Both the position numbers and the translations under genes were made by a program. From the sequence record MH359124: a stretch of DNA of 64,000 bases; one strand, given 5' to 3'. How positions within the stretch are numbered: position 1 is the first letter of the stretch; each line of letters opens with the position of its first letter. Origin of the DNA: Escherichia phage SF. Below are positions 19,498 through 36,301 of the stretch, in pieces. The notes under the pieces are model-generated. The model ran no database searches. It saw only the letters and a program-made list of their open reading frames with translations, and had not been told where the DNA came from.

Positions 19498-19835
19498 CCG
19501 TATGGCCTTCTCTTGGTGAGAACATTCTAATTTTTATTATGAGTATTGGCGTGGGATTTGCCTTTGGATTAGTTGGATTTCTTATTGACGGCGTTGTGTT
19601 AGGATTTATAGGGAACACTGGTGGATTCACAGACCAATGGCAGGACTTACGGTATACCCAAGCCTTTGCATCCATCGCATCATTTTGTACTGTAGTCTAT
19701 TTTTACTATGATTTTATAAACCATAACAAGAAAAATAAAAAGGTTTACGCTTCTCAAATGATTAGTTATAATGAACTCCTAGCTAGACGTGAAAATGAAA
19801 CAATAGAAAACTTTATTAAGGAATGTAGAAAATGA
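19476..19835 (+). CDS. membrane protein with C-terminal ENFIKECRK tail
   Basis: 119 aa; hydrophobic segments; conserved C-terminal motif shared with 21982 and 22975 genes. Confidence 0.55.
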   Translation: MQKPQLLTVWPSLGENILIFIMSIGVGFAFGLVGFLIDGVVLGFIGNTGGFTDQWQDLRYTQAFASIASFCTVVYFYYDFINHNKKNKKVYASQMISYNELLARRENETIENFIKECRK

Positions 19836-20137
19836 GTAAGATTATTGAAATTAAAGTACCAGAGTTTAATGATGCCAAATCCGCTTCAGATGCAATTTAT
19901 AAACTTCTGAATCAAGCTGAACGTATCGAAGAAGAAGCAACAAAGATCGCAGACCAATATGCCGTATCATTTTCTGTAGGTGATTATGGTAGCGGTCGTA
20001 CTTATTATCCTAAGGGTGAAATCGTATCCCAGTGGATGAAAAATGAAATTGAAAATAATGGTGGCGATGTTAAGCGTGAAGGTAATGGTTACGTTATTAC
20101 TGAAGGTGCTTGGGTTTCGTCTTCTGCGTTGTGCTAA
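19832..20137 (+). CDS. small protein, tandem paralog A (C-terminus GAWVSSSALC)
   Basis: 101 aa; ATGA overlap with upstream stop. Confidence 0.55.
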   Translation: MSKIIEIKVPEFNDAKSASDAIYKLLNQAERIEEEATKIADQYAVSFSVGDYGSGRTYYPKGEIVSQWMKNEIENNGGDVKREGNGYVITEGAWVSSSALC

Positions 20138-20146
20138 GGAACCACT

Positions 20147-20419
20147 ATGTCTAAAGAACAAACCGAACTGGCTGAAGCCGTAGCAAAAATCTATGCAGCT
20201 ATTGAGGCTGCCAAAGAAATTGCTGATAAACAAAACACAACATTCGACTTGTATCCAGCTTATGGTATGGGTGGAACATATCATTCACCCGGACAGCTTA
20301 AAGCCGATCTTGAACGTTGTACAAAAAACGGCTATGCTGAATGGGCTGACGTTTACCAATACGACTACAACCTGAGCCTCGAAACTGGTGGTTGGATCGC
20401 ATCTTCTCACACTTGCTAA
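20147..20419 (+). CDS. small protein, tandem paralog B (C-terminus GGWIASSHTC)
   Basis: 90 aa; junction TGCTAAGGAACCACTATGTCT conserved with next paralog. Confidence 0.55.
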   Translation: MSKEQTELAEAVAKIYAAIEAAKEIADKQNTTFDLYPAYGMGGTYHSPGQLKADLERCTKNGYAEWADVYQYDYNLSLETGGWIASSHTC

Positions 20420-20428
20420 GGAAACCAT

Positions 20429-20626
20429 ATGTCTCGTGAATTAGATTGTGCTGTACGTACTGCAGTAGCTGCCCTGGAAAACCTGTTCCAAATTGCAACA
20501 GAAGAACGCGAAGAAGTTACATTATGGATTGAAGATAACGCAGGTCTGAATCTCCAGGACGCGATCTCATTATCCCACAATAGTATCACTGTTCAAGGCT
20601 GGGTATCGTCTAGTTATTCTTGCTAA
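20429..20626 (+). CDS. small protein, tandem paralog C (C-terminus QGWVSSSYSC)
   Basis: 65 aa. Confidence 0.55.
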   Translation: MSRELDCAVRTAVAALENLFQIATEEREEVTLWIEDNAGLNLQDAISLSHNSITVQGWVSSSYSC

Positions 20627-20953: not shown

Positions 20954-21910
20954 ATGATGTTAGTTATTGGTTCTCGTGCACTTCACTATCATGGACTTAT
21001 TGATTCTAATGCTATCAAAAATAGTGACTGGGACTTTATTGCAGACCAAGGTTCTTGGAATGCATTCAAAAATCAAATGATGGGTGTATATGTTCATCAA
21101 GATAACCCTGATGTCCAAGTTTTCAAATGCTTCCATAATGGACGCGAAACTCATTTTGAAGCATATATTGTTCCGGCAATCACTAATGTCCGTGAATTAG
21201 TCGGTGAACTCACTCCTGAAGATTTCACATCTTCTTACGACCTTTTAAAATACGCCAAGAAAAATTTGACCAAAGACCGTTTGAACGGGTTTTACTGGGC
21301 AACTCCTGAGATATGTCTTGCAATTAAGATGTCTCATCGTTTCAAGAAAAATAATCCATTCTTTTTAAAGACTATGAACCATATTCAGTATCTTCGTGGT
21401 AAAGGTGTTACACTGAACGACGAACTTACTGAAATTATGCTGAAACGCCAGAAAGAAACCTTGAACTATGCTCACCCAGTTCTTGACACTTCTAAAAGTG
21501 CGTTCTTTAAAGATGACATCTATACATATGACCATGATACTATTCATGAAGCCATTGCACTAACAGACCGCCCGGCTTATACATTTTACATGAAAGATGG
21601 TTCTGAAGTCATGACCTCACGCGAGAAGTTTGAATCATTACCAGAAATGGTAAAATTGGCTGGTGTATACGAAGAATCATGTGTACTAGCATTAGAACGT
21701 TCTCAGATTCCTAACGACTTTAAAATTAACCCTGAAGCCAGTTTTATGATGGCATTGGAAAAAGTCTGTACAAGCATCACCTCTGGTTGGTTCCGTGAGT
21801 ATGCCTGGGAAAACTATAGCAAAGTAGTAAGTATGTACCAAAGCTTAGGACATGATGATTACGTCAAACGTTTCAAACAAAATTTCCATATGGTAAAACC
21901 TTTCAAATAA
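20954..21910 (+). CDS. hypothetical protein, possible nucleotidyltransferase-fold N-terminus
   Basis: 318 aa; N-terminal LVIGSRALHYHG...SDWDF loosely resembles GS...DxD NTase motif. Confidence 0.55.
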   Translation: MMLVIGSRALHYHGLIDSNAIKNSDWDFIADQGSWNAFKNQMMGVYVHQDNPDVQVFKCFHNGRETHFEAYIVPAITNVRELVGELTPEDFTSSYDLLKYAKKNLTKDRLNGFYWATPEICLAIKMSHRFKKNNPFFLKTMNHIQYLRGKGVTLNDELTEIMLKRQKETLNYAHPVLDTSKSAFFKDDIYTYDHDTIHEAIALTDRPAYTFYMKDGSEVMTSREKFESLPEMVKLAGVYEESCVLALERSQIPNDFKINPEASFMMALEKVCTSITSGWFREYAWENYSKVVSMYQSLGHDDYVKRFKQNFHMVKPFK

Positions 21911-33465: not shown

Positions 33466-33939
33466 ATGATTATCAATGAAAACTCTTGGCACTTTAAAAT
33501 TTATGCCGCGTTCAATAGTACATGGAATCGCCCGAAAACGTTGTGTGCTTATTTTTGGAAAACGTTAATCCCGGTATTGTCTGTTTCAATTATCGGATTT
33601 GCGATTTTAGCAGCAGTCGTAATCATTGGCCAGGAAATTTTAACTAAATTCTTTGTTTTTAGCAGTTTATGGACATTAGTTCCAGCCTCAATTGGCGTAG
33701 GCGTTTTAATGGTAGCAGTCATGGCTTTTATTGCTACCGGGTTGGTAATTGGTCCGTCTTGGTTGTTAGACAAATATAACGACAGAAAATATTATAAAGA
33801 AATTGAGTTCATTGCGCAAAACCAAGAACGAATTAAAAATGGACTTGAGCCTATTGAACGTAAGAAATCATTAATAGGCGAATACCTTAAAGCTCGTAAA
33901 GAAAAAGTCTGTCCTACTCTTGAATATAAGGCTAAATGA
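33466..33939 (+). CDS. membrane protein (about 3 TM helices)
   Basis: LIPVLSVSIIGFAILAAVVIIG and LWTLVPASIGVGVLMVAVMAFIATGLVIG. Confidence 0.55.
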   Translation: MIINENSWHFKIYAAFNSTWNRPKTLCAYFWKTLIPVLSVSIIGFAILAAVVIIGQEILTKFFVFSSLWTLVPASIGVGVLMVAVMAFIATGLVIGPSWLLDKYNDRKYYKEIEFIAQNQERIKNGLEPIERKKSLIGEYLKARKEKVCPTLEYKAK

Positions 33940-34925
33940 TGAAAACAATTATGAAAGGCTACTTTGGTAGCCACCTTTATGGAACGTCTACTCCTGAATC
34001 TGACGTCGATTTTAAAGAAATTTATGTCCCTCATGCTCGTGATATCTTGACCGGTAACGTTAAAGAACACATGAGCAAGAACACGAATAACACATCTTCT
34101 AAGAACACAAAAGACGACGTGGACCACGAGTTGTATAGTCTCAAATATTTCTTTAAACTAGCTATGGATGGTGAAACTGTCGCATTAGATATGCTTCACA
34201 CTCCGCAAAGTCTAGTAGTTAAATCTGATTTGCCTGACATGTGGAAGTATATTCAAGACAACAGGTCTCGTTTCTATACCACTAACATGAAATCTTATTT
34301 AGGGTATGTCCGTAAGCAAGCTTCTAAATACGGTGTCAAGGGTTCTCGACTGGCTATTCTTCGTCAAGCCCTTAAACGTTCTAATGAATGGGGTCAATAC
34401 TTTGATAATGGTGCAGTAATTCGTTTATCACATATGAAGAATGTTCTGCCCGTAGGTGAATTTGCTTCGTGGGTTGAAACCGAAAACGAGAAAACAGGTA
34501 AGCAAACGTTCTATAATCTGTTAGACCGTAAATTCCAAGACACATTAACCAATAAAGAGTTCAATGCCATCCTGGTTAAACTGGAAGAGAACTATGGCGA
34601 ACGTGCTCGTAAGGCAGAAGCTAACGAAGGTATTGACTGGAAAGCATTGAGTCATGCATGTCGTGGTGGACTTCAACTATTAGAAATTTATAAAACCGGC
34701 GACCTGGTTTACCCACTTCGGGATGCTCCATTTATTCTAGATGTTAAGCTTGGTAAACATACGTTTAAAACTGTACAAGAATTCCTAGAAGATATCGTTG
34801 ACCAAGTTGAACAAGCATCAGAACAAGCTGCCAAGAACGGTATGCAACAAAAAGTAGATATGAGTTTCTGGGATGATTTCCTTGAGCAAGTCTACTTAGA
34901 AAACCACAATTCGTACTATAAATGA
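33936..34925 (+). CDS. nucleotidyltransferase-fold protein (pol-beta superfamily GS...DxD motif)
   Basis: N-terminus YFGSHLYGTSTPESDVDF; 329 aa. Confidence 0.6.
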   Translation: MMKTIMKGYFGSHLYGTSTPESDVDFKEIYVPHARDILTGNVKEHMSKNTNNTSSKNTKDDVDHELYSLKYFFKLAMDGETVALDMLHTPQSLVVKSDLPDMWKYIQDNRSRFYTTNMKSYLGYVRKQASKYGVKGSRLAILRQALKRSNEWGQYFDNGAVIRLSHMKNVLPVGEFASWVETENEKTGKQTFYNLLDRKFQDTLTNKEFNAILVKLEENYGERARKAEANEGIDWKALSHACRGGLQLLEIYKTGDLVYPLRDAPFILDVKLGKHTFKTVQEFLEDIVDQVEQASEQAAKNGMQQKVDMSFWDDFLEQVYLENHNSYYK

Positions 34926-34926
34926 T

Positions 34927-34944
34927 AAGGGCCTTCGGGCCCTT
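34927..34944 (+). terminator. stem-loop AAGGGCC-TTCG-GGCCCTT
   Basis: Perfect GC-rich hairpin right after stop; weak T tract. Confidence 0.45.
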
Positions 34945-34971
34945 TAGGGGGTCAAAATATTTTTAAAAAGT

Positions 34972-35016
34972 AGTGTACATGCTTTTAGGATATGTTATTA
35001 TAGACATATCAAAACA
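34972..35016 (+). promoter_or_regulatory. PeSL-like promoter (GTGTAC; TATTAT inside GGATATG / CATATC)
   Basis: taGTGTACatgcttttaGGATATGttatTATAGACATATCaaaacaa. Confidence 0.5.
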
Positions 35017-35031
35017 AGAGGAGAAAACAAA

Positions 35032-35250
35032 ATGAAAACCAAAATGTTAGAAATGATTCGTGAAGCTGGTGATAAAGGTCTTATGGTTAACACTCGTGAT
35101 GCAGACCAACGTCAAGCATTCGGTGAACTGAAATCCAAAGGTCTGGTTAAAGCATCCTTGGGAATCGGTAATGCATTACGAGTCACTTTGACTCCTGCTG
35201 GTAAAGCAGTGTTCTTTCAACCTCTTACCAAAAAATCTCGTCGCAAATAA
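35032..35250 (+). CDS. small basic protein, possible DNA-binding
   Basis: 72 aa, Lys/Arg-rich C-terminus. Confidence 0.5.
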   Translation: MKTKMLEMIREAGDKGLMVNTRDADQRQAFGELKSKGLVKASLGIGNALRVTLTPAGKAVFFQPLTKKSRRK

Positions 35251-35251
35251 T

Positions 35252-35296
35252 TGTTTACTTTTGCTTTAAACGTGTTATTATAGACCTATCGAAACG
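35252..35296 (+). promoter_or_regulatory. PeSL-like promoter (GTTTAC; TATTATAGACCTATC)
   Basis: ttGTTTACttttgctttaaacgtgtTATTATAGACCTATCgaaac. Confidence 0.5.
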
Positions 35297-35320
35297 AAAT
35301 GAGTAAATTTGGAGAATAAA

Positions 35321-36301
35321 ATGTTCAACGTTCAAATCAAAAAAGGTATCTATCGTAATAACGAAATCTCTGGTTCTTATGTTGCCACAAAGACCTGGTT
35401 CCCGGCAAAGCTTAATCCTGAATGTTCCCACTTAGGTGATGGTAAAATTTTCGTTATGATTGATGGTTCTGAACGTGGAGTATGGGTCTTCAAATCAGAC
35501 ATCGTAATGGAAGGAGCTGAGACATCACCAGTTGCAGTTGTTGAAAGCACTGAAGATATGAAAACTCGTATCAACAAACGCTTTAAAGTAATGAGCATGA
35601 TGACGAATGGCATTATCGATGGCAAAATTCGTTCACTCATTATTTCAGGTGCAGCTGGTATTGGTAAGACGTATTCTCTGGATAAAGCACTTAATAATGC
35701 TAATGATAACGGTTTCATCAAATACAAAAGCATTAATGGTAAAATCTCTGGTATTGGCCTTTACGAACAACTTTGGCTCAACCGTGATGCAGACAGCGTT
35801 CTCTTAATCGACGACGTTGATGTATTCTCGGATATGGACATCTTGAACCTTCTTAAAGCAGCATTAGATACCGGTGATAAACGCAAAGTTTGTTGGAGCA
35901 CTGCGTCATCTTATCTCGATGATAAGGGTATTGATAAAGAATTTGAGTTTGAAGGTACTATCGTTTTCATTACAAACGTTGATATCGATAAAGAGTTAGA
36001 ACGCGGTTCGAAACTTGCTCCGCACCTTCAAGCTTTAGTATCTCGTTCAGTGTATCTCGACCTTGGAGTACACTCTAATGAAGAGATTATGGTTCGAGTT
36101 GAAGATGTAATATTATCTACTGACATGATGCAGAAACGTGGTCTGACGGATGCAGAAACGTATAAAGCATTGTCCTGGATGAAGGCTAACGTATCTCGTC
36201 TTCGCAATGTATCATTACGTACGGCTCTTTATGTAGCAGATTTTATTTCAACTGATAAAGACGGTTGGGAGGAAATCTCTGAAGTTACACTTCTGAAATA
36301 A
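35321..36301 (+). CDS. AAA-type ATPase
   Basis: Walker A GAAGIGKTYS, Walker B VLLIDDVD; 326 aa. Confidence 0.65.
   Translation: MFNVQIKKGIYRNNEISGSYVATKTWFPAKLNPECSHLGDGKIFVMIDGSERGVWVFKSDIVMEGAETSPVAVVESTEDMKTRINKRFKVMSMMTNGIIDGKIRSLIISGAAGIGKTYSLDKALNNANDNGFIKYKSINGKISGIGLYEQLWLNRDADSVLLIDDVDVFSDMDILNLLKAALDTGDKRKVCWSTASSYLDDKGIDKEFEFEGTIVFITNVDIDKELERGSKLAPHLQALVSRSVYLDLGVHSNEEIMVRVEDVILSTDMMQKRGLTDAETYKALSWMKANVSRLRNVSLRTALYVADFISTDKDGWEEISEVTLLK

What the first reader, a model, noticed from the sequence alone, without database searches (positions are those of the whole stretch)
33936..36301. Nucleotidyltransferase-fold protein next to an AAA-type ATPase
The 329 aa protein begins with the pol-beta superfamily motif GS-x10-DVD. 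A 72 aa basic protein follows, then a 326 aa ATPase with Walker A GAAGIGKT and Walker B LLIDDVD. The NTase fold is typical of signalling and anti-defense enzymes, and a second loosely similar N-terminus occurs at 20954-21910.
Basis: inference. Interest (0 to 1): 0.5.

Follow-up and report, generated by a model that had tools for sequence, protein, structure and literature searches.

The report
T4 nrdC.11 RNA-repair nucleotidyltransferase, nrdC.10 ATPase
These are the well-conserved T4-type phage genes nrdC.11, a nucleotidyltransferase of the RlaP family thought to add back lost nucleotides to cut RNA, and nrdC.10, an uncharacterised AAA+ ATPase; they are neighbours by shared ancestry rather than a demonstrable two-gene system, so the finding is real but ordinary.

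Summary

The window is an RB69-like Mosigvirus (98.7% identical to phage PHB12). The genes are nrdC.11, RB69ORF102c and nrdC.10.

**NrdC.11** is a Pol-beta-fold nucleotidyltransferase.
- It matches Pfam RlaP (PF10127) at 48.6 bits against a cut-off of 23.
- G11, S12, D23, D25 and D63 are invariant across 65 homologs.
- A December 2025 preprint places T4 NrdC.11 in this family. It shows that two Pseudomonas RlaPs add 1-2 NMPs to RNA 3'-OH ends, and proposes repair of tRNAs trimmed by nucleases such as RloC.
- RB69 also encodes pseT, rnlA and rnlB, elsewhere in its genome.

**The pairing looks like inherited gene order, not a module.**
- The two genes are adjacent in only about half of the related loci.
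- They lie far apart in Aeromonas and Vibrio T4-like phages.
- No NrdC.10 homolog occurs in 80 bacterial loci that carry the nucleotidyltransferase.
- Phage VR20 lacks nrdC.10 entirely.
- A hairpin and separate promoter-like boxes lie between the genes.

The ORF at 20954-21910 shows no detectable relationship to NrdC.11.

Verdict: already known, low interest.

The parts
33466..33939 (+). 157 aa predicted membrane protein (homolog of RB69p104). Its stop overlaps the nucleotidyltransferase start (ATGA). It is context, not shown to be functionally linked.
   Evidence: ORF. phrog_944 'membrane protein' at 2e-52. RB69 annotation. A homolog lies upstream of the nucleotidyltransferase in 43 of 79 related loci.
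33936..34925 (+). nrdC.11 ortholog: 329 aa RlaP-family (PF10127) Pol-beta-fold nucleotidyltransferase. It has an N-terminal catalytic domain (about residues 1-100) and a helical C-terminal half with a beta insertion at about 177-201.
33966..34124 (+). Catalytic signature of the nucleotidyltransferase: G11-S12, D23-x-D25 and the third carboxylate D63.
   Evidence: These residues are invariant in the 65-sequence alignment A2. They align with the G-S, D-Y-D and D positions of canonical bacterial RlaPs by hhalign.
34927..34944 (+). GC-rich hairpin (AAGGGCC-UUCG-GGCCCUU) directly after the nucleotidyltransferase stop codon. It is terminator-like but lacks a clean U-run here.
   Evidence: T4 has GGGAGCC-UUCG-GGCUCCC followed by a T-run at the same place.
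34974..35001 (+). Promoter-like box (TGTACA-16-TATTAT) upstream of the 72 aa ORF.
   Evidence: Consensus scan. It is nearly the same sequence as the box before nrdC.10. This is a consensus match only.
35032..35250 (+). 72 aa basic protein (homolog of RB69ORF102c, phrog_6001), function unknown. It is a small accessory gene inserted between nrdC.11 and nrdC.10 in this lineage.
   Evidence: pI 10.8. Found in only 136 phage records, and at other genome positions in JS98-like phages. Absent from T4.
35254..35281 (+). Promoter-like box (TTTACT-16-TATTAT) upstream of nrdC.10.
   Evidence: T4 has GTTTACA...TACTAT at the same place. This is a consensus match only.
35321..36301 (+). nrdC.10 ortholog: 326 aa AAA+ ATPase. 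It has an N-terminal beta-rich domain (1-64), a flexible linker (66-73), an AAA+ core and a helical C-terminal lid. Walker A is at residues 110-117 (nt 35648-35671) and Walker B at residues 161-167 (nt 35801-35821).

Best explanation
The window comes from an RB69-like T4-type phage. The finding covers its nrdC.11, RB69ORF102c and nrdC.10 genes.

**NrdC.11** is a member of the RlaP family of Pol-beta-fold nucleotidyltransferases. [quoted passage not shown] The probable targets are tRNA halves that a host anticodon nuclease has cut and then trimmed. The phage's own end-healing and sealing enzymes (PseT kinase-phosphatase, RNA ligases 1 and 2, encoded elsewhere in the genome) could then rejoin a full-length tRNA. 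That would make it an accessory counter-defence enzyme, not a signalling enzyme.

**NrdC.10** is a separate AAA+ ATPase of unknown role. It sits next to nrdC.11 because the ancestral gene order of Tevenvirinae and Acinetobacter T4-like phages placed it there.

**The 72 aa gene** is a lineage-specific insertion between the two.

*Shown here:* gene identities, folds, catalytic motifs, distribution and local signals. *Inferred:* the RNA substrate, the repair role and the independence of the ATPase.
For: **Identity**
- The region is 98.7% identical in DNA to phage PHB12 and 96.6% to RB69, where the genes are annotated nrdC.11, ORF102c and nrdC.10.
- T4 has nrdC.11 and nrdC.10 adjacent.

**Family and fold of NrdC.11**
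- Pfam RlaP match above its curated cut-off.
- hhalign against canonical bacterial RlaPs gives 93.6% probability, E=2e-7, over residues 3-139.
- G11, S12, D23, D25 and D63 are invariant.
- AF2 pLDDT is 93.9.

**Biochemistry of the family (PMC12776372)**
- The Pseudomonas RlaPs PfRlaP and PaRlaP add 1-2 NMPs to RNA 3'-OH ends.
- They prefer cleaved-tRNA mimics and Mn2+.
- They do not act on DNA or proteins.
- The same paper places T4 NrdC.11 in cluster 5 of its PF10127 sequence similarity network.
- PMC7824862 states that RlaP distribution in jumbo phages mirrors that of RNA ligases.

**Repair partners and dispensability**
- RB69 encodes pseT, rnlA and rnlB.
- T4 mutants carrying a nrdC.11-mobD.3 deletion are viable, as expected for an accessory gene (PMC9825161).

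**Independence of the ATPase**
- Only 37 of 79 nucleotidyltransferase-anchored loci and 39 of 79 ATPase-anchored loci hold both genes within 10 kb.
- The genes are about 100 kb apart in Aeromonas T4-like phages (contig ranges).
- They are about 60 kb apart in KVP40.
- No NrdC.10 homolog occurs in 80 bacterial NrdC.11-like loci.
- Phage VR20 keeps the nucleotidyltransferase, pseT, rnlA and rnlB but has no nrdC.10 anywhere in its genome.
- A hairpin and separate promoter-like boxes lie between the genes, here and in T4.
Against: - No activity of any phage NrdC.11 has been measured.
- The biochemical data come from one preprint on two Pseudomonas enzymes of a different subfamily cluster.
- Only the N-terminal ~135 residues of NrdC.11 align with canonical RlaPs, by both Pfam (profile positions 23-143 of 249) and hhalign. 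The substrate-binding C-terminal half could therefore confer a different specificity.
- In this phage the nucleotidyltransferase is not next to any RNA ligase.
- Among 80 bacterial loci with close relatives, RNA-repair genes are only occasional neighbours: two Pfam hits each to RtcB, RtcA (RTC) and the Pnkp ligase domain, four to AAA_33, and one to a T4-type RNA ligase.
- The PfRlaP structure is not in the PDB copy searched, so no direct structural comparison was possible.
- Absence of conserved adjacency does not prove that the ATPase never cooperates with the nucleotidyltransferase in phages that have both.
Confidence: 0.6

Rival explanations
1. NrdC.11 and NrdC.10, possibly with the 72 aa protein, work together as one counter-defence module. 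For example, the ATPase could remodel or deliver damaged RNA or ribosomes to the nucleotidyltransferase.
For: The two genes are adjacent, on the same strand and in the same order, in all 37 nucleotidyltransferase-anchored loci and all 39 ATPase-anchored loci that hold both. These span Tevenvirinae-like and Acinetobacter T4-like phages. Both genes are widespread: 1564 and 1310 phage records.
Against: - The spacing between them varies from 112 to 2284 bp, with unrelated insertions.
- A terminator-like hairpin and separate promoter-like boxes lie between them.
- They are unlinked in Aeromonas, Vibrio, marine and jumbo phages.
- No NrdC.10 homolog lies beside bacterial NrdC.11-like genes.
- VR20 has lost only the ATPase.
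- In marine T4-like contigs the conserved neighbour of the ATPase is a UvsW-like helicase.
Confidence: 0.12
2. NrdC.11 makes, caps or destroys a nucleotide second messenger. It would then interfere with nucleotide-signalling defences such as CBASS, Thoeris or Hailong.
Against: - The sequence family is RlaP, whose tested members act on RNA 3' ends.
- No CD-NTase or cGAS-type structure appears among the matches listed.
- There is no PADLOC hit.
- The HalB similarity covers only the shared 127-residue catalytic core at 15% identity.
Confidence: 0.06
3. NrdC.11 nucleotidylylates a protein or small molecule, as the aminoglycoside nucleotidyltransferases and MNT antitoxins do, rather than RNA.
For: Structural neighbours include kanamycin nucleotidyltransferase, LinB, ANT(3'')(9), an MNT-type nucleotidyltransferase and the AMPylator DrrA. 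The C-terminal half cannot be aligned to canonical RlaPs.
Against: - The Pseudomonas RlaPs did not label E. coli proteins.
- The only NCBIfam MntA hit is far below its cut-off: 12.9 bits against 60.
- Family membership by HMM favours RlaP.
Confidence: 0.08
4. NrdC.11 does extend RNA 3' ends, but on a different target than trimmed anticodon loops. Candidates are the tRNA 3' CCA end or phage or host mRNA fragments.
For: - The Pseudomonas RlaPs labelled rRNA-sized, tRNA-sized and fragment RNAs, and show little NTP specificity.
- The NrdC.11 subfamily has its own conserved C-terminal motif, D234-W235-K236 ... H240 ... R243.
- The gene is not linked to the ligase genes in this phage.
Against: There are no direct data either way. 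The published preference for the 5' half of a cleaved tRNA mimic favours the anticodon-loop model.
Confidence: 0.14

Closest known systems
T4 NrdC.11 / RB69 NrdC.11 (RefSeq 'nucleotidyltransferase'; Pfam PF10127)
   Same: It is the ortholog: 96-99% identical to RB69-group proteins and about 77% to T4-group proteins. It has the same length and the same position between the mobD.1/membrane-protein genes and nrdC.10.
   Different: Nothing of substance differs. T4 has the homing endonuclease mobD upstream and lacks the 72 aa ORF downstream.
PfRlaP and PaRlaP, the Pseudomonas RlaPs encoded between rtcB and rtcA (PMC12776372)
   Same: Both belong to Pfam family PF10127. Both have the G-S / D-x-D / D catalytic signature and an N-terminal nucleotidyltransferase domain followed by a helical domain.
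   Different: - They fall in a different cluster of the published sequence similarity network (cluster 5 versus 1a).
- NrdC.11 is longer, at 329 aa against about 250-280 aa for canonical members.
- Its C-terminal half cannot be aligned to them.
- It is not encoded beside an RNA ligase.
- Its activity has not been tested.
Hailong HalB, kanamycin nucleotidyltransferase ANT(4') and PDB 3c18 (structural neighbours)
   Different: Identity is only 10-15%. They belong to different sequence families and use different substrates (dATP oligomerisation, aminoglycosides).
T4 NrdC.10 (uncharacterised AAA+ ATPase, phrog_1250)
   Same: It is the ortholog: 78% identical to T4-group proteins, with the same length, start context and position.
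   Different: Nothing of substance differs. No function is known for any member.

Membership tests
RlaP (Pfam PF10127, RNA ligase-associating Pol-beta nucleotidyltransferase) | Match to the family HMM above the curated gathering score | tested here: met
   48.6 bits against a cut-off of 23, E=1.1e-12. The match covers residues 7-136 and profile positions 23-143 of 249. All 120 listed homologs carry precomputed PF10127.
RlaP (Pfam PF10127, RNA ligase-associating Pol-beta nucleotidyltransferase) | Pol-beta catalytic signature: G-[GS], then D-x-[DE] about 10 residues later, and a third carboxylate on a later strand | tested here: met
   G11, S12, D23, D25 and D63 are invariant in 65 homologs. They align to the same motifs in canonical RlaPs.
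RlaP (Pfam PF10127, RNA ligase-associating Pol-beta nucleotidyltransferase) | Nucleotidyltransferase fold of the N-terminal domain | tested here: met
RlaP (Pfam PF10127, RNA ligase-associating Pol-beta nucleotidyltransferase) | C-terminal helical domain homologous to that of characterised RlaPs, forming the RNA-binding cleft | tested here: inconclusive
   The model has a helical C-terminal half. However, Pfam and hhalign alignments stop at about residue 139, and the PfRlaP structure is not in the PDB copy.
RlaP (Pfam PF10127, RNA ligase-associating Pol-beta nucleotidyltransferase) | Gene encoded beside an RNA ligase or RNA-repair genes (the origin of the family name; true of some members only) | tested here: not met
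   The neighbours here are a membrane protein, a 72 aa ORF and an ATPase. In RB69, pseT, rnlA and rnlB lie 55-83 kb away in the same genome. Among close bacterial relatives, RtcB, RtcA, Pnkp and Rnl genes are neighbours only occasionally.
RlaP (Pfam PF10127, RNA ligase-associating Pol-beta nucleotidyltransferase) | Mn2+-dependent addition of 1-2 NMPs to RNA 3'-OH ends | not testable with these tools
   This has been shown only for the Pseudomonas RlaPs PfRlaP and PaRlaP (PMC12776372).
AAA+ ATPases | Walker A (GxxxxGK[ST]) and Walker B (hhhhD[DE]) motifs | tested here: met
   GAAGIGKT lies at residues 110-117 and LLIDDVD at 161-167. G110, G113, G115, K116, T117, D164 and D165 are invariant in 40 homologs.
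AAA+ ATPases | AAA+ alpha-beta-alpha core plus helical lid fold | tested here: met
AAA+ ATPases | Assignment to a named AAA+ family or clade | tested here: inconclusive
MNT-HEPN type VII toxin-antitoxin nucleotidyltransferases | Match to MntA-type models and an adjacent HEPN partner | tested here: not met
   The NCBIfam MntA hit scores 12.9 bits against a cut-off of 60. No HEPN hit was found among the neighbouring ORFs scanned.

The most novel reading that the evidence does not exclude
The NrdC.11 branch of RlaP has its own C-terminal half and the motif D-W-K-x-x-x-H-x-x-R. It could be a functionally distinct enzyme that, in Tevenvirinae and Acinetobacter T4-like phages, cooperates with the adjacent NrdC.10 AAA+ ATPase. 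Together they would form a previously unrecognised RNA-repair or counter-defence pair aimed at nucleotide-excising tRNA nucleases.
Probability: 0.1. Interest if true: 0.55.

Novelty: already known. Interest (0 to 1): 0.2.

Why it matters
Phage T4 was the first system in which RNA repair was found: PseT plus RNA ligase 1 undo tRNA-Lys cleavage by PrrC. Nucleases such as RloC evade that repair by also removing a nucleotide.

If NrdC.11 restores the missing nucleotide, it would be the missing third enzyme of the T4 pathway. It would also explain why this gene is kept in more than 1500 sequenced T4-like phages.

That idea is already in the literature and only needs a wet-lab test. This window adds no new element to it.

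The useful outcome here is negative. The ATPase next door should not be assumed to be part of the system, and the common 'thioredoxin' label on both genes in GenBank is a naming artefact.

Tried and rejected
**Direct PDB sequence searches.** I searched with the nucleotidyltransferase, the ATPase, and profiles of both RlaP groups. Only noise came back, and the PfRlaP structure is evidently not in the copy.

**afdb50 fold search.** The library was not available.

**The original RlaP paper.** I could not read Burroughs & Aravind 2016 because it is not held. I cite it only through PMC12776372 and PMC7824862.

**A second nucleotidyltransferase at 20954-21910.** I rejected any relationship to NrdC.11: BLASTP E=6.4, hhalign 0.3%, no nucleotidyltransferase Pfam hit even at E<=10, and no PDB hit.

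**Defence-system or toxin-antitoxin membership.** PADLOC and NCBIfam gave nothing for the nucleotidyltransferase and no match near a cut-off for any of the four proteins.

**A conserved bacterial partner for NrdC.11-like genes.** The only recurrent neighbour was a second, canonical RlaP gene. RNA-repair genes were sporadic, and no NrdC.10 homolog was present.

**The 72 aa protein as a core part.** I rejected this. It occurs in only 136 phage records, is absent from T4, and lies elsewhere in JS98-like genomes.

Full report
**What is in the sequence**

The + strand between 33936 and 36301 carries three ORFs.
- A 329 aa protein at 33936-34925.
- A 72 aa protein at 35032-35250.
- An ATPase whose longest ORF starts at a TTG at 35309.

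The likely start of the ATPase is the ATG at 35321, giving 326 aa. That ATG follows GGAG in the same context as the annotated T4 start.

- GS-x10-DVD lies at residues 11-25 of the first protein.
- GAAGIGKT lies at residue 110 of the ATPase and LLIDDVD at residue 161.
- The small protein is basic (pI 10.8).

**Where the window comes from**

The region is 98.7% identical to Escherichia phage PHB12 and 96.6% to RB69. In the RB69 RefSeq record the genes are nrdC.11 ('nucleotidyltransferase'), RB69ORF102c and nrdC.10. They lie in the tk - rI - mobD.1 - nrdC.x - nrdC early region.

T4 has nrdC.11 and nrdC.10 adjacent with a 114-bp gap, and no 72 aa ORF. The finding is therefore the T4-type nrdC.11/nrdC.10 pair in a Mosigvirus.

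**The nucleotidyltransferase: sequence family**

- It matches Pfam RlaP (PF10127, 'RNA repair pathway DNA polymerase beta family') at 48.6 bits against a curated cut-off of 23.
- It matches phrog_388 'nucleotidyltransferase' at 2e-125.
- A search of 1.84 billion cluster representatives found 3259 related clusters, 746 of them at E<1e-30.
- In an alignment of 65 full-length relatives of 34-52% identity, G11, S12, S22, D23, D25, N57, D63, Y132, K236, R243 and G273 are invariant.
- G11/S12, D23/D25 and D63 are the classical Pol-beta signature: a glycine-serine turn, two metal-binding aspartates and a third carboxylate. That reading rests on general knowledge of the superfamily, as summarised in PMC12776372.

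**The nucleotidyltransferase: fold**

- The AlphaFold2 model built from this alignment is confident (pLDDT 93.9, pTM 0.83).
- It shows an N-terminal alpha/beta domain and a helical C-terminal half with a beta insertion at about 177-201.
- The top nineteen Foldseek matches against the PDB are all nucleotidyltransferase-fold proteins, though the E-values are weak: 3c18, kanamycin nucleotidyltransferase, Hailong HalB and LinB.

**What the family does**

Burroughs and Aravind named the family RlaP because some members are encoded beside RNA ligases. I know this through PMC12776372 and PMC7824862; the original paper is not held.

A December 2025 preprint (PMC12776372) characterised two Pseudomonas RlaPs encoded between rtcB and rtcA.
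- They add one or two NMPs to the 3'-OH of RNA.
- They prefer the 5' half of a cleaved-tRNA mimic and prefer Mn2+.
- They accept all four NTPs and dATP.
- They do not act on DNA or proteins.
- When a tRNA lacking one anticodon-loop nucleotide is treated with RlaP before ligation, part of its aminoacylation is recovered.

The authors propose RlaP as an antidote to 'smart' ribotoxins such as RloC, which remove a nucleotide after cutting. The same paper places T4 NrdC.11 in cluster 5 of its PF10127 sequence similarity network.

The jumbo-phage survey PMC7824862 makes the same prediction and notes that RlaP distribution follows that of RNA ligases.

RB69 carries the whole T4 repair set in the same genome: pseT, rnlA and rnlB, 55-83 kb from nrdC.11.

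Viable T4 mutants with a nrdC.11-mobD.3 deletion have been reported (PMC9825161). This fits an accessory role.

**Limits of that transfer**

- Only the first ~135 residues of NrdC.11 align with canonical RlaPs. The Pfam match covers profile positions 23-143 of 249.
- hhalign against 13 canonical bacterial RlaPs gives 93.6% probability and E=2e-7 for residues 3-139, and nothing beyond.
- The C-terminal half has its own conserved positions: K131, Y132, R223, D234, W235, K236, H240, R243.
- The PfRlaP structure is not in the PDB copy, so the substrate cleft could not be compared.
- Among 80 bacterial loci encoding 33-52% identical relatives, RNA-repair genes are only occasional neighbours. Pfam gave two hits each to RtcA (RTC), RtcB and the Pnkp ligase domain, four to AAA_33, and one to a T4-type RNA ligase.
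- The commonest neighbour there is a second, canonical RlaP gene immediately downstream: 14 of 116 flanking genes by Pfam, and a 15-locus cluster by BLAST.

Membership in RlaP is therefore solid for the catalytic domain. The RNA-repair mechanism is an inference by homology.

**The ATPase**

- All Pfam AAA-type hits fall below their cut-offs.
- PHROGs places it in phrog_1250, of unknown function.
- Forty homologs of 52-82% identity conserve the Walker motifs and many other positions.
- The AF2 model (pLDDT 89.3) has a beta-rich N-terminal domain (1-64), a low-confidence linker (66-73), an AAA+ core and a helical C-terminal lid.
- NCBIfam gives no hit, and PADLOC gives only one weak SspF hit (E=0.023).
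- I found no published function.

**Are the two genes a unit?**

Several lines say no.

- *Distribution.* tblastn finds the nucleotidyltransferase in 1564 phage records and the ATPase in 1310, with different spreads across host genera.
- *Adjacency.* In IMG/VR, 37 of 79 nucleotidyltransferase-anchored loci have the ATPase within 10 kb. It is always downstream on the same strand, with gaps of 112 to 2284 bp. Conversely, 39 of 79 ATPase-anchored loci have the nucleotidyltransferase nearby.
- *Which phages show adjacency.* The adjacent cases are Tevenvirinae-like and Acinetobacter T4-like phages.
- *Unlinked in other T4-like phages.* In Aeromonas T4-like phages the genes are about 100 kb apart on the same contig. 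In KVP40 they are about 60 kb apart.
- *Different neighbours elsewhere.* In Vibrio phages D528 and D525, in jumbo phages and in marine T4-like contigs, the ATPase has other neighbours. In 27 of 37 marine, Aeromonas and Vibrio loci a UvsW-like helicase follows it.
- *Bacteria.* None of the 80 bacterial NrdC.11-like loci has a NrdC.10 homolog.
- *Natural loss.* Phage vB_EcoM_VR20 keeps the membrane protein, nrdC.11, the 72 aa ORF, nrdC.9, pseT, rnlA and rnlB. It has no nrdC.10 homolog anywhere in its 170,336 bp.
- *Local signals.* A GC-rich UUCG hairpin follows the nucleotidyltransferase stop. Near-identical promoter-like boxes precede the 72 aa ORF and the ATPase. T4 has a canonical hairpin plus T-run, then GTTTACA...TACTAT, in the same gap. 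These are consensus matches, not mapped signals.

Together this fits inherited gene order. It does not exclude cooperation in the phages that have both genes.

**The 72 aa ORF**

It is found in only 136 phage records, mostly Mosigvirus and relatives. In JS98-like phages it sits at a different genome position. It has no family hit apart from phrog_6001, of unknown function. I treat it as a small accessory insertion.

**The 'second N-terminus' at 20954-21910**

This is RB69ORF134c, made of Pfam DUF7277 and DUF7275. It shows no detectable relationship to NrdC.11.

Its family does keep G6, S7, A9, D25, D27 and E69 invariant. That pattern is compatible with a separate minimal nucleotidyltransferase.

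**Verdict**

- The nucleotidyltransferase and ATPase calls are correct.
- The signalling reading and the two-gene reading are not supported.
- The genes are the known nrdC.11 and nrdC.10, and the best functional hypothesis for nrdC.11 is already published.
- Novelty: already known. Interest: low (0.2).

The most novel reading still open is a Tevenvirinae-specific nucleotidyltransferase-ATPase partnership built on a functionally distinct RlaP branch. I put it at about 10%.

Noticed in passing
window 20954-21910 (+): This 318 aa protein (RB69ORF134c; Pfam DUF7277 + DUF7275) belongs to a family that keeps G6, S7, A9, D25, D27 and E69 invariant. That is a G-S / D-x-D / acidic pattern like a minimal nucleotidyltransferase. 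No relationship to RlaP, to any Pfam nucleotidyltransferase family or to any PDB sequence was detectable. Its fold is untested.
   Followed up: partly
window 19832-20137, 20147-20419, 20429-20626 (+): Three tandem small paralogous ORFs of 101, 90 and 65 aa. All begin MS(K/R) and end with G-W-(V/I)-x-S-S-x-x-C, with the cysteine as the last residue.
   Followed up: partly
window 34974-35001 and 35254-35281 (+): Two nearly identical promoter-like boxes (..TAC(A/T)-16-TATTAT followed by AGAC(A/C)TATC) precede the 72 aa ORF and nrdC.10. This looks as if the small ORF was inserted together with a copy of the nrdC.10 upstream region.
   Followed up: partly
window 33466-33939 (+): The stop of the 157 aa membrane protein overlaps the nrdC.11 start (ATGA). 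This gene is more tightly packed against the nucleotidyltransferase than the ATPase is. A homolog lies upstream of nrdC.11 in 43 of 79 related loci.
   Followed up: partly
L165-L244 (bacterial genome contigs): Bacterial genes 33-52% identical to NrdC.11 often have a second, canonical RlaP gene (about 250-280 aa) immediately downstream on the same strand. Pfam found this in 14 flanking genes, and BLAST grouped a 15-locus cluster. This suggests tandem RlaP pairs.
   Followed up: partly
L136-L164 (marine T4-like IMG/VR contigs), e.g. L141:11356-12903: A UvsW-like SF2 helicase directly follows the NrdC.10-like ATPase (about 33% identical) in 27 of the 37 ATPase-anchored loci L126-L164 that lack the nucleotidyltransferase nearby, most of them marine T4-like contigs. 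The helicase is 24% identical to RB69 UvsW, E=5e-29. A helicase also lies just downstream in Vibrio phage D528.
   Followed up: partly
L247-L250 (vB_EcoM_VR20, NC_028894); also L013, L018, L068: Gaprivervirus VR20 and relatives have the order membrane protein - nrdC.11 - 72 aa ORF - nrdC.9. The VR20 genome contains no nrdC.10 homolog at all, while pseT, rnlA and rnlB are present.
   Followed up: yes
public records matched: Many GenBank phage records label nrdC.10 and nrdC.11 homologs 'thioredoxin'. The name is apparently carried over from the nearby nrdC gene. No thioredoxin domain is detected in either protein.
   Followed up: yes
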